From: Adineta vaga
Lineage: Eukaryota > Animalia > Rotifera
Assembly: GCA_021613535.1 (NCBI GenBank)
Contig: CP075493.1
Span: 10,077,179-10,141,178 of the forward strand
Reading direction: 5' to 3'
DNA length: 64,000 bases
The position numbers and the translations under genes are program-made. The stretch's first letter is position 1, and every line of letters begins with the position of its first letter. The notes beneath the pieces were generated by a model. The model was not told the origin of the DNA and did no database searches. It saw only the letters and a program-made list of their open reading frames with translations. Positions 57,757 to 59,204 of this stretch are shown one piece after another.

Positions 57757-59204
57757 CTATTGCCATCCATTGTCGAGTGCTATATGATTATCATAAACGA
57801 TAAATTCTCGTACTACTTTCAATGGTGGAAAGGACTTCATTGTTAAATAGTTGATAATTGTTTCATTTCTTTCAAGTGCATTATATCGACCACAATCAAA
57901 TAAACGCATAGTAATCATATAATGATAATTATTATCATCTAAACATTTGAATGCATTCTGAGATAAATGTAAACGTTCACCACTATATTGACATATTTGT
58001 CGAAGTTGTTCGTAGTTTTTCATTTTGTGATTATCTTTTAGTAAAACTTTGTAATGAAATTCGAAATAATTTGATTCATTATTCCAGAATAGTTCTTTCT
58101 CAAGATCTTTTTCTGGTACACCTTCATTTGATGCCAAAGATTCGATTTTTAATCGTATAATATTGAATTTTTCAAAATGTTTATGAACTTCTTCTTCAAG
58201 TTTGGGTACAATCTCTGGATATTCTCCACCATGATATGATGAAGTCATTAATTGTTGAAGCTTACGTTTTTTATTCGTGCTTTCCAAATCAATAAGTAAA
58301 ACTTTATATTTTGTATTTTCACATGTTTTTTTCAAATTTTCAATAACTTCTTCAGTATTATGTGTACAATCAATTGTAACATGTAATTCAAATGTACCTT
58401 TGATACGATTGGTTGGTATAAGTGTATTTAACTGGGATTTGTTTTCTGCACTTTTTTCATTAACAAATTTGAGTACACTAAAAAGAAGAAGGAGACGAAG
58501 AAAGTACAATATGAAGGCAAAGTCATTCATCATAATGTTATTTACCTTTCCCAGCTATCGGTAACACTCGAATCATCACGTATTTGTTTCATTTCATTCA
58601 GCACATGTGATACACGTTTAAAATCATGAATTGATTTTGTTTCGATCAATTGTTTCGCAATATCCAAATAACGAAAACCATGAAATAAATTTTTGAATAA
58701 ATATATTTTTCCTGCTTCACTAGTTTCGGCAGGTTCACCACTACGTATTGGATACAAAGTATAATCATCAAGATTATACATTTTAACAGAGATGTAATTT
58801 TCGTAGAATGCAACTGTTTTTATTCGTGATGGATCATAATAGTTGTCAAGATAAATTTTTTGAAAATCAATTTCTTCTTTGATTTTAAATTCAGCTGGTA
58901 AAAATACACATTCAACAGCTAATAAATAATTTTTCTGAAGAAGTGTTTCAAAATTTTCAACAGTATGAACACAAACATCATATTGATTCCATAATTTATG
59001 TAACTCAAAGTTATGGAAATAATCAATTTCATCTTCAAATGTTAATGGAGTATTTTTCAATGTACGTCTAACAATGAGAAGATCACGATCAGATGTTGCT
59101 GAATTAGTGCCGTATACCCATGAACCATAGTTATATATGCAAACAACTTCATCTTCTTTTATATCAAGTTCACGTAAAATTGCAGGTATAACAGAGCGAT
59201 TCAT
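57757..59204 (-). CDS. Pol-beta-superfamily nucleotidyltransferase fused to a 2H-phosphoesterase-like domain. 2 exons: 58546..59204 and 57757..58477, separated by a 68-nt intron.
   Basis: NTase signature VVCIYNYGSWVYGTNSATSDRDLLIV (GS-x3-G-x5-SDxDLL) plus a candidate third acidic residue at YDVCVHTV. Donor gaaag|gtaaat and acceptor ttctttttag|T join in phase (...SWE-S-VLKFVNEK...). Second exon has two H-x-[TS]-x motifs about 150 aa apart (FELHVTID and ERLHLSQNAF). Confidence 0.55.

What the first reader, a model, noticed from the sequence alone, without database searches (positions are those of the whole stretch)
57757..59204. Nucleotidyltransferase fused to a 2H-phosphoesterase-like domain, convergent with the DarT-like locus
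Exon 1 has the minimal Pol-beta NTase signature GS-x3-G-x5-SDxDLLIV. This is the same pattern seen in Cid1/GLD-2, OAS/cGAS-like and CD-NTase enzymes. Exon 2, joined in phase by a 68-nt intron, has two H-x-[TS]-x motifs (FELHVTID and ERLHLSQNAF) separated by about 150 aa. This is the hallmark of 2H phosphoesterases (LigT, CPDase, and the 2'-5'-oligoadenylate-degrading AKAP7 and viral ns2/VP3 enzymes). A single protein that can both make and cleave an unusual phosphodiester (a 2'-5' or cyclic nucleotide signal, or an RNA-end modifier) next to an ADP-ribosyltransferase-type gene is the sort of pairing seen in nucleotide-signalling immune systems. I am not aware that this domain combination has been characterised.
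Basis: partly seen in the sequence, partly recalled or inferred. Interest (0 to 1): 0.75.

Follow-up and report, generated by a model that had tools for sequence, protein, structure and literature searches.

The report
Rotifer nucleotidyltransferase fused to RNA-repair-type partner domain

Summary
The gene model is real. Two exons on the minus strand, joined by a 68-nt GT..AG intron, give a 459-aa protein identical to Adineta vaga I4U23_003252. The N-half is a Pol-beta nucleotidyltransferase with an invariant GS...DxD...D set. Its nearest relatives are RlaP-like RNA 3'-end NTases.

The C-half belongs to a large family with no Pfam model (969 representatives), which PADLOC labels "AbiEi". In 60 of 67 bacterial loci it lies just upstream of a DUF1814/AbiEii NTase. 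In all 22 RNA-ligase-containing loci, all from Myxococcota-type (deltaproteobacterial) genomes, an RNA ligase is encoded close by on the same strand, directly upstream in nearly all. Fused NTase versions occur in giant-virus-like contigs, and stand-alone copies in large phages.

The DarT-like neighbour is separated by another gene and is absent from the syntenic A. ricciae locus.

Best reading: a horizontally acquired, single-chain RNA-3'-end modifying or repair enzyme.

The parts
58546..59204 (-). Exon 1 (codons 1-219 plus 2 nt): Pol-beta nucleotidyltransferase core and helical domain
59070..59126 (-). NTase signature GSWVYGTNSATSDRDLLIV (G27 S28 ... D39 x D41)
   Evidence: Translation checked. 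G27, S28, D39 and D41 are present in all 29 relatives that cover the site.
58977..58979 (-). D76, candidate third catalytic carboxylate of the NTase
   Evidence: Present in all 30 relatives that cover the site. Its catalytic role is inferred from the general Pol-beta NTase architecture.
58478..58545 (-). 68-nt GT..AG intron, phase 2, at the boundary between the two domains
   Evidence: Same position and phase in the A. ricciae orthologue (57 nt).
57757..58477 (-). Exon 2 (codons 220-459 plus stop): linker helix and the tandem ferredoxin-like partner domain
57760..58398 (-). C-terminal domain (aa 247-459). It has two beta-alpha-beta-beta-alpha-beta repeats and belongs to the family with no Pfam model that matches PADLOC PDLC02277 'AbiEi' and phrog_25995
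   Evidence: PADLOC E 1.9e-33 over aa 249-458. PHROG hits. 969 representative relatives. AF2 pLDDT 86. Fold searches.
58375..58389 (-).
   Evidence: E, H and T each in 52/55 diverse members. E and H invariant in 32/32. Coordinates checked.
58141..58155 (-). RLKIE: the invariant R-x-K-x-E on strand beta4 of repeat 1
   Evidence: R 53/55, K 55/55, E 52/55. Invariant.
58048..58068 (-). YFEFHYK: the invariant Y-x-E-x-H-x-K on strand beta1 of repeat 2. It is the pseudo-symmetric mate of ELHVT and the real second conserved His
   Evidence: Y 55/55, E 55/55, H 51/55, K 49/55. Secondary structure.
57961..57969 (-). It is not family-invariant
   Evidence: H in 40/55 members. G, Y, L, A, R and K also occur. 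16/31 among the rotifer-type full-length relatives of A1.
57904..57912 (-). TMR: the conserved T-x-R on strand beta3 of repeat 2
   Evidence: T 50/55, R 51/55. R invariant.
57790..57807 (-). EFIVYD: the conserved E444 ... D449 on strand beta4 of repeat 2
   Evidence: E 51/55, D 55/55.

Best explanation
The gene encodes a single-chain, two-module enzyme that a eukaryote (Adineta vaga) obtained by horizontal transfer. It is related to bacterial, phage and giant-virus RNA-end modification and repair modules.

Shown:
(1) Module 1 (aa 1-214) is a Pol-beta nucleotidyltransferase with an intact GS/DxD/D set and a helical C-terminal sub-domain. Its closest named relatives are RlaP-type NTases.
(2) Module 2 (aa 247-459) is a tandem ferredoxin-like domain. 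Its family is widespread, has no Pfam model and has never been characterised. About 17 polar residues are invariant. They sit at alternate positions of the central strands of both repeats: ExHxT, RxKxE, YxExHxK, TxR and E...D.
(3) In bacteria this domain is a separate gene placed directly upstream of, and often overlapping, a DUF1814/AbiEii NTase gene. In Myxococcota the operon is RNA ligase, then the domain, then the NTase.

Inferred:
- The NTase adds one or a few nucleotides to RNA 3' ends, with tRNA the most likely substrate. RlaP and MenT/AbiEii enzymes do this.
- The C-domain works on the same RNA end or nucleotide. My preferred reading is that it is the end-healing or end-trimming partner. 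That would be a phosphoesterase built on the two pseudo-symmetric His strands and would fill the role that 2H, cRec or Pnkp phosphoesterases play in other RNA-repair operons.
- The fused protein could then clear a damaged or blocked 3' end and rebuild it.
For: - Gene model and identity.
- The full-length homologue P0070 (32% identity over 457 aa, E 2e-64) passes the Pfam RlaP threshold. RlaP adds 1-2 NMP to damaged RNA 3' ends (PMC12776372).
- C-domain family: 969 representatives at E<=1e-3. Invariant residues. PADLOC PDLC02277 at E 1.9e-33.
- Gene context: an AbiEii-type NTase immediately downstream in 56/67 loci, or 60/67 by clustering, confirmed by Pfam and PADLOC.
- An RNA ligase (PF09414, E 9e-12 to 3e-16) directly upstream in 7 of 9 sampled deltaproteobacterial loci and on the same strand in 22 loci overall.
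- Phage copies lie near Rnl1, a '2'-5' RNA ligase' gene and tRNA genes.
- Established operon logic of RNA repair is ligase + phosphoesterase + NTase (PMC7824862).
- Stand-alone copies occur in phages and large viral contigs with no NTase neighbour. This argues for an autonomous activity, not a purely cis-regulatory role.
Against: - No biochemical data exist for any member of the family.
- PADLOC files the family as an antitoxin (AbiEi), and the gene order (upstream, overlapping) is the classical antitoxin position.
- Fusions to Ham1-like and MazG-like NTP pyrophosphatases and to methyltransferases do not follow obviously from an RNA-end-healing role.
- Many rotifer paralogues have lost the invariant C-domain residues while keeping the NTase residues.
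- The rotifer NTase is not detectably of the DUF1814 type found next to the bacterial genes.
- No RNA ligase lies near the gene in the window.
Confidence: 0.5

Rival explanations
1. A fused toxin-antitoxin-like (AbiE-type) module. The C-domain is a non-catalytic regulator that binds the NTase and holds it inactive, for example by inducing auto-phosphorylation as AbiEi and MenA do. It releases the NTase on infection or stress, and the NTase then blocks translation by extending tRNA 3' ends. In the rotifer this would be a self-contained immune or stress effector.
For: - PADLOC AbiEi HMMs match the C-half (E 1.9e-33) and the bacterial stand-alone proteins (E about 1e-59), and their neighbours match AbiEii.
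- The gene order is upstream and overlapping, as for antitoxins.
- Known AbiEi and MenA antitoxins act by binding and inducing toxin auto-phosphorylation (PMC11375011 and bioRxiv 10.64898/2026.01.19.700257).
- ACT-like fold neighbours.
- Loss of C-domain invariant residues in paralogues is tolerable for a binding domain.
Against: - About 17 invariant charged or polar residues shared by bacteria, phages and eukaryotes at about 30% identity are unusual for a mere binding partner.
- The domain partners with different NTase families and with non-NTase enzymes.
- The Myxococcota operon carries an RNA ligase, which signals repair and not toxicity.
Confidence: 0.25
2. The C-domain is a small-molecule sensor, a tandem ACT-like module for a nucleotide, NTP or pyrophosphate. 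It allosterically controls whichever NTP-cleaving enzyme it is attached to: an NTase, a Ham1-like ITPase or a MazG-like pyrophosphatase.
For: - The recurrent partners all bind NTPs and release PPi: Pol-beta NTases, Ham1-like domains (28 of 258 retrieved proteins) and the MazG-like phrog_1247.
- The invariant acidic and basic residues could bind a phosphate-rich ligand.
Against: - ACT ligand sites usually lie at domain interfaces and loops. Here the conserved residues sit on strand faces.
- The RNA-ligase operon context and the phage RNA-repair neighbourhoods are not explained.
Confidence: 0.15
3. An OAS/cGAS/CD-NTase-like synthase fused to a true 2H phosphoesterase makes and degrades a 2'-5' or cyclic oligonucleotide signal, and is functionally paired with the neighbouring DarT-like ADP-ribosyltransferase.
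For: - Two H-h-[TS]-h motifs are present, and the strict pattern occurs twice in only 1% of shuffles.
- The first motif is family-invariant.
- NCBI names one distant member (Balamuthia, P0250) a '2'-5' RNA ligase superfamily protein'.
- A DarT-domain ORF lies 2.1 kb away.
Against: - The fold is not LigT-like.
- hhalign against LigT gives 0.08-0.6% probability, against 98% for the control.
- There are no Pfam 2H hits, not even for P0250.
- The second His is not conserved and is not the symmetry mate of the first.
- There is no similarity to OAS, cGAS or SMODS.
- The DarT adjacency is interrupted by another gene and is not conserved in A. ricciae.
Confidence: 0.04

Closest known systems
RlaP (PF10127), the RNA-ligase-associated Pol-beta NTase of RNA-repair operons
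   Same: The N-half is a Pol-beta NTase followed by a helical domain. The full-length homologue P0070 passes the RlaP gathering threshold, and 3 of 21 rotifer-family members hit RlaP weakly. RlaP adds 1-2 nucleotides to damaged RNA 3' ends (PMC12776372). The partner-domain family is linked to RNA ligases in Myxococcota.
   Different: The window protein itself does not reach the RlaP threshold. It carries an extra C-terminal domain that characterised RlaPs lack. No RNA ligase lies nearby in the rotifer genome.
AbiE / MenAT nucleotidyltransferase toxin-antitoxin systems (AbiEi-AbiEii; DUF1814 NTases)
   Same: The C-half matches the PADLOC 'AbiEi' HMMs PDLC02277 and PDLC02279. Its bacterial relatives sit just upstream of AbiEii-family NTase genes in 60/67 loci.
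   Different: The domain is unrelated in sequence and fold to canonical AbiEi (wHTH + CTD, COG5340, PDB 6Y8Q). Here it is fused to the NTase rather than being a separate gene. The rotifer NTase is not of the DUF1814 type. The host is an animal, and the gene has a spliceosomal intron.
2H phosphoesterases (LigT/ThpR, CPDase, CNPase, AKAP7, viral ns2/VP3)
   Same: An internally duplicated alpha+beta protein with His-containing strand motifs (H-h-T/S-h). It occupies the operon slot next to an RNA ligase and an NTase, where a 2H end-healing enzyme is often found (PMC7824862).
   Different: The topology differs: two complete beta-alpha-beta-beta-alpha-beta repeats. There is no structural or profile match. 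The conserved His pair is ExHxT / ExHxK on the first strand of each repeat. It is accompanied by invariant Arg, Lys, Glu and Asp residues that 2H enzymes lack.
HalB of the Hailong anti-phage system (PDB 9dbh) and minimal NTases (3c18, KNTase)
Tandem ferredoxin-like / ACT-type proteins (HemQ/chlorite-dismutase-like, aldoxime dehydratase, AHAS small subunit, CT0912)
   Same: The same secondary-structure order (two beta-alpha-beta-beta-alpha-beta units) over the whole C-half.

Membership tests
2H phosphoesterase superfamily | Two H-x-T/S-x motifs conserved throughout the family | tested here: not met
   The first motif (H252-V-T254) is conserved: 52/55, and H invariant in 32/32. The second (H390-L-S392) is not. 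H occurs in 40/55, with G, Y, L, A, R and K seen, and in 16/31 among the rotifer-type full-length relatives of A1.
2H phosphoesterase superfamily | LigT-like bilobed fold with the two His strands facing each other across the cleft | tested here: not met
2H phosphoesterase superfamily | Sequence or profile similarity to a 2H family (LigT_PEase, 2_5_RNA_ligase2, CPDase, AKAP7, CNPase) | tested here: not met
   No Pfam 2H hit for the protein, 25 relatives or distant members. hhalign against ThpR gives 0.08%. Against a four-sequence LigT profile it gives 0.4-0.6%, with a positive control at 98.1%. Only the LigT branch was profiled.
2H phosphoesterase superfamily | 2',3'-cyclic or 2'-5' phosphodiesterase activity | not testable with these tools
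   Needs biochemistry.
Pol-beta nucleotidyltransferase superfamily | hG[GS] ... [DE]h[DE]h motif plus a third carboxylate on a later strand | tested here: met
   G27, S28, D39, D41 and D76 are present and invariant in all relatives that cover those sites.
Pol-beta nucleotidyltransferase superfamily | Match to the Pfam NTase models | tested here: inconclusive
   The window protein is just below the gathering scores: Polbeta 25.3 against 26.9 for the full-length protein, and NTP_transf_2 19.0 against 21 for the N-half alone. All 21 relatives match both models, with best E 4.3e-9 and 1.2e-6. phrog_388 'nucleotidyltransferase' matches at E 1.6e-8.
Pol-beta nucleotidyltransferase superfamily | NTase fold | tested here: met
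RlaP (PF10127) | Score above the Pfam gathering threshold | tested here: not met
   No RlaP hit for the window protein. 3 of 21 relatives hit weakly, best E 0.016. The full-length homologue P0070 does pass, at 27.9 against 23 bits.
RlaP (PF10127) | Genomic association with an RNA ligase | tested here: inconclusive
   No ligase lies in the rotifer locus. The partner-domain family is linked to a PF09414 RNA ligase in 22 Myxococcota loci, but the NTase there is of the DUF1814 type.
OAS / cGAS / CD-NTase (SMODS) signalling synthases | Profile or structural similarity to OAS1_C, Mab-21, SMODS or CD-NTase | tested here: not met
AbiE system (AbiEi/AbiEii) | Match to an AbiEi model | tested here: met
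   PADLOC PDLC02277 matches at E 1.9e-33 (aa 249-458 on profile positions 2-192 of 195) and PDLC02279 at E 7e-28. The PADLOC label appears to rest on gene position. It is not a tested function.
AbiE system (AbiEi/AbiEii) | Canonical AbiEi architecture (N-terminal wHTH plus COG5340 C-terminal domain) | tested here: not met
AbiE system (AbiEi/AbiEii) | Partner NTase of the DUF1814/AbiEii family | tested here: not met
   This holds for the bacterial stand-alone relatives (60/67 loci). The rotifer N-half has no AbiEii hit, and hhalign against the bacterial neighbours gives 0.16%.
AbiE system (AbiEi/AbiEii) | Toxicity of the NTase and its neutralisation by the partner | not testable with these tools
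   Needs expression assays.

The most novel reading that the evidence does not exclude
The C-half defines a new enzyme family, not just a binding domain. It would be a phosphoesterase built on a tandem ferredoxin-like scaffold, with two pseudo-symmetric catalytic His strands (ExHxT / YxExHxK) plus an Arg/Lys/Glu array. It would be convergent with 2H enzymes and would heal or trim RNA 3' ends. Paired with NTases, it would form a 'clear-and-rebuild' (writer/eraser) system for tRNA 3' ends. Bacteria would use this system in repair or abortive infection, and phages and giant viruses as counter-defence. Bdelloid rotifers would have captured and expanded it as a single-chain animal enzyme.
Probability: 0.25. 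Interest if true: 0.8.

Novelty: new variant of a known kind. Interest (0 to 1): 0.6.

Why it matters
The NTase half is ordinary. The partner domain is not. It is a large family with no structure, no Pfam model and no tested function. It is found in bacteria, phages, giant-virus-like contigs, amoebae, chytrids and rotifers.

Two independent lines link it to nucleotidyltransferases: operon adjacency in 60 of 67 bacterial species, and gene fusion in eukaryotic and viral sequences. In one phylum it is also linked to RNA ligases. That gives a concrete, testable hypothesis for a missing component of RNA-3'-end repair or of AbiE-type defence.

The finding also shows that PADLOC's 'AbiEi' label covers a protein unrelated to canonical AbiEi. 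Finally, it documents an animal gene family, with introns and many paralogues, derived from prokaryotic or viral conflict systems. This fits the known horizontal gene uptake of bdelloid rotifers and offers a eukaryotic model for the module.

Tried and rejected
- The AlphaFold-database Foldseek library was not available, so no annotated AFDB neighbours were obtained.
- Sequence searches of the PDB found nothing useful. I tried the whole protein, the C-half profile, the N-half profile and the broad domain profile.
- NCBIfam gave only a weak MntA hit for the N-half and nothing for the C-half or its bacterial relatives.
- A genome scan with the diverse domain alignment A5 failed for lack of a conserved stretch. 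The narrower alignment A6 worked.
- A viral-contig scan with the fused homologue P0192 found nothing.
- hhalign of the rotifer NTase half against the bacterial AbiEii neighbours found no specific similarity. The simple idea that the rotifer gene is a fused AbiEi+AbiEii pair was therefore dropped.
- The DarT linkage was tested by tblastn in the syntenic A. ricciae locus and rejected.
- The NCBI name '2'-5' RNA ligase superfamily protein' for the Balamuthia member P0250 was followed up. No Pfam 2H hit supports it.
- Literature searches for this domain, for AbiE in eukaryotes or giant viruses, and for DarT in rotifers found nothing relevant.
- A triphosphate-tunnel (CYTH) fold and a Cas6-like fold were considered because of the charged strand faces. 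Neither appears among the fold-search hits.
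Full report
**What is at the coordinates**

The window is AT-rich (about 30% GC throughout). The minus strand between 57757 and 59204 carries two ORFs. They join in phase when a 68-nt GT..AG intron (58545..58478) is removed, giving a 459-aa protein. This protein is 100% identical to NCBI 'hypothetical protein I4U23_003252 [Adineta vaga]' on an 18-Mb contig. The window is therefore bdelloid rotifer chromosome, and the splice model is the annotated one.

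The A. ricciae orthologue has an intron at exactly the same position and phase. A paralogue on a sparse-gene metagenome contig, and homologues on compact virus-like contigs, encode the same two-domain protein as one uninterrupted ORF. The fusion of the two halves is therefore not an annotation artefact.

**The N-half**

Pfam gives Polbeta (E 1.7e-5) and NTP_transf_2, both just below the gathering scores for this protein. All 21 aligned relatives hit both models, with E values down to 4e-9. G27, S28, D39, D41 and D76 are invariant.

There is no sign of OAS, cGAS or CD-NTase kinship. P0070 is a full-length homologue from a metagenome, with 32% identity over 457 residues and E 2e-64. It passes the Pfam threshold for RlaP. 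RlaP is the RNA-ligase-associated NTase recently shown to add one or two nucleotides to damaged RNA 3' ends (PMC12776372).

**The C-half is not a 2H phosphoesterase**

- No Pfam family is hit by the C-half, by 25 relatives or by distant members.
- The AlphaFold model is confident (pLDDT 86, pTM 0.82). It consists of a linker helix followed by two beta-alpha-beta-beta-alpha-beta repeats.
- Foldseek agrees: HemQ/chlorite-dismutase-like proteins, CT0912 ('ferredoxin-like domain repeat') and the AHAS small subunit, at E 7e-5 to 1e-2 but TM about 0.25. No 2H structure appears in either list.
- hhalign of the family profiles against E. coli ThpR or a four-member LigT profile gives 0.08-0.6% probability. 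The positive control gives 98%.
- At least two H-x-[TS] motifs occur in 28% of shuffles of this sequence.
ExHxT (H252) is essentially invariant across the wider family. H390-L-S is not: H occurs in 40/55 members and is replaced by G, Y, L, A, R or K.
- H390 lies on strand 2 of the second repeat, so it is not the symmetry mate of H252. The true mate is H361 in Y-F-E-F-H-Y-K, on strand 1 of repeat 2.

**What the C-half is**

An exhaustive profile search finds 969 cluster representatives at E<=1e-3 and 392 at E<=1e-10. Many are stand-alone proteins of about 200-230 aa.

The invariant residues, in rotifer numbering, are E250, H252, T254, K278, R328, K330, E332, P341, Y357, E359, H361, K363, T409, R411, E444, D449, D455 and W458. 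They sit at alternate positions on the central strands of both repeats. That places them on the helix-free faces of the two sheets, which is an inference from the secondary structure.

PADLOC recognises the domain. Residues 249-458 match HMM PDLC02277 'AbiEi' at E 1.9e-33, and bacterial stand-alone members match at about 1e-59. PHROGs has it as phrog_25995 (unknown function) and as the C-terminal half of phrog_1247, 'MazG-like pyrophosphatase'.

**Gene context of the domain**

A scan of one genome per GTDB species returned 67 loci. They come from Calothrix, Rivularia, Nostoc and Scytonema cyanobacteria, from Myxococcota, from Acidobacteria, from Gemmataceae and from one Bacteroidetes MAG.

- In 56 loci the next ORF downstream on the same strand, often overlapping by a few bases, is a DUF1814/AbiEii NTase. 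Clustering of stop-to-stop ORFs raises this to 60 of 67. Pfam AbiEii and PADLOC AbiEii confirm the assignment.
- In 22 loci, all Myxococcota or 'Deltaproteobacteria', an RNA ligase is encoded on the same strand, directly upstream of the domain gene in nearly all. Seven of nine sampled upstream genes hit PF09414 at E 9e-12 to 3e-16. The operon is RNA ligase, then the domain, then the NTase.
- Large phages carry stand-alone copies. XacN1 ORF257 lies three genes from a '2'-5' RNA ligase' gene. phiM12 gp254 lies three genes from an Rnl1-type RNA ligase. Aeromonas Lahexavirus and RP13 copies lie near tRNA genes.
- Seven IMG/VR contigs of 346-380 kb carry a stand-alone copy with no NTase neighbour.

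The Ham1-like fusions include Amoebozoa such as Cavenderia F4PGT6, Thecamoeba and Stygamoeba. A few chytrid proteins are fused to methyltransferases.

The fused NTase forms outside rotifers lie on compact, intron-less contigs. One is 1.6 Mb with many small paralogous genes. Another sits beside an Rpb1 fragment and a DUF2828 gene. They look like giant viruses, but I did not prove this. A rough neighbour-joining tree without support values places the rotifer clade next to these sequences.

**Mechanism**

The shown facts are:
- an intact NTase;
- a conserved partner domain with an enzyme-like constellation of invariant residues;
- an obligate NTase partnership, by operon or by fusion;
- an RNA-ligase link in one phylum.

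Comparative genomics of RNA repair describes operons that combine a ligase, an end-healing phosphoesterase (2H, cRec or Pnkp-type) and an NTase such as RlaP that restores lost nucleotides (PMC7824862). The domain occupies the phosphoesterase slot.

I therefore favour, at about 50% for the overall picture, an RNA-3'-end modifying or repair enzyme. The C-domain would process or recognise the RNA end or nucleotide, and the NTase would extend it. The specific claim that the C-domain is a two-His phosphoesterase convergent with 2H enzymes is an inference, which I put at about 25%.

The main rival is the toxin-antitoxin reading implied by PADLOC, in which the domain is a non-catalytic neutraliser of an NTase toxin. 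This resembles AbiEi and MenA, which induce toxin auto-phosphorylation. Gene order and the ACT-like fold neighbours favour it. Four points count against it: the lack of any relation to canonical AbiEi, the invariant residues, the diversity of partners and the ligase operon.

A ligand-sensor reading would best explain the Ham1-like and MazG-like fusions. None of the three readings can be excluded without experiments.

In the 31 aligned rotifer-type full-length relatives (bdelloid proteins plus a few metagenome sequences) the NTase residues are never lost, but the C-domain invariant residues often are: H252 is kept in 20/31, H361 in 17/31 and E332 in 12/31. The window copy keeps all of them.

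**The DarT neighbour**

The 561-aa ORF at 53983..55668 does carry a DarT domain. It is separated from this gene by an F-box-like ORF. In A. ricciae the malic-enzyme, NTase-fusion and F-box-like synteny is kept. There, the next gene is unrelated, and tblastn finds no DarT-like sequence within 10 kb. Nothing supports a functional pairing.

**Verdict**

The NTase call and the idea of a functionally coupled second domain hold. The 2H membership, the OAS/cGAS analogy and the DarT pairing do not.
- The gene is a new, fused, eukaryotic variant of NTase-plus-partner modules that are catalogued in bacteria but not understood.
- Its partner domain is a good target for structural and biochemical work.

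Noticed in passing
window 53983-55668 (+): A 561-aa intron-less ORF in a rotifer chromosome carries a full-length DarT domain (ssDNA thymidine ADP-ribosyltransferase; Pfam E 7.7e-16, residues 242-441). No DarG-like macrodomain was looked for. The ORF is absent from the syntenic A. ricciae locus.
   Followed up: partly
window 56561-57556 (+): A 331-aa ORF with a weak N-terminal F-box-like match lies between the DarT-like ORF and the NTase gene. Its A. ricciae orthologue occupies the same position next to the NTase-fusion gene.
   Followed up: partly
window 60485-62491 (+) and 63657-63875 (+): Several ORF fragments look like exons of a malic-enzyme gene, and a thrombospondin-type-1-like ORF follows. 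The same neighbours (malic enzyme, TSP_1 protein) flank the orthologue in A. ricciae, so the block is syntenic host DNA.
   Followed up: partly
L041, L044-L047, L049-L051, L053, L054, L056, L057, L059-L062, L064-L066, L069, L073, L077 (about 2300-5500 in most): Conserved three-gene operon in Myxococcota: PF09414 RNA ligase, then the uncharacterised tandem-ferredoxin domain protein, then a DUF1814/AbiEii NTase. It looks like an undescribed RNA-repair cassette, yet PADLOC would label it AbiE.
   Followed up: partly
L078 8001-9266 and L080 5001-6275: Full-length NTase+domain homologues lie on compact intron-less contigs. One is 1.6 Mb with many small Rho_N/SAP-like paralogues. The other sits next to an RNA polymerase Rpb1 fragment and a DUF2828 gene. 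They look like giant viruses and are possible donors or recipients of the rotifer genes.
   Followed up: partly
L081-L087 (about 2983-3633): Seven IMG/VR viral contigs of 346-380 kb (GC 0.43-0.45) carry a stand-alone 216-aa copy of the domain with no NTase neighbour. The virus type was not identified.
   Followed up: no
L088 2719-3636 (XacN1 ORF257); L089 3016-3621 (phiM12 gp254); L090 2995-3606; L091 3124-3618: Large phages encode stand-alone copies annotated as hypothetical proteins. They lie close to a '2'-5' RNA ligase' gene, an Rnl1-type RNA ligase or tRNA genes. They are candidate anti-defence or RNA-repair genes.
   Followed up: partly
P0076, P0080, P0090 (Cavenderia F4PGT6), P0111, P0152; phrog_1247: The same domain is fused to Ham1-like NTP pyrophosphatases in Amoebozoa. 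It also forms the C-terminal half of a phage 'MazG-like pyrophosphatase' family. This recurrent link to NTP-cleaving enzymes is not explained by the RNA-repair reading.
   Followed up: partly
L009 9541-10452: In one bacterial metagenome locus (L009; neighbours suggest a cyanobacterium, taxonomy not determined) the gene after the domain/AbiEii pair is a metallo-beta-lactamase-fold protein. It hits the Anti-Pycsar Apyc1 family, which comprises cyclic-nucleotide-degrading enzymes.
   Followed up: no
P0018 (758 aa) and P0048 (817 aa), Rotaria; P0008 (498 aa): P0018 carries ankyrin and TPR repeats by its precomputed Pfam domains. Both P0018 and P0048 are long proteins with the partner domain at the C-terminal end (residues 513-752 and 572-813). 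P0008 has a 42-residue internal duplication in the helical sub-domain.
   Followed up: no
P0250 (Balamuthia mandrillaris, 245 aa): NCBI names this distant family member '2'-5' RNA ligase superfamily protein'. No Pfam 2H model matches it even at E<=1, so the origin of the name is unknown.
   Followed up: partly
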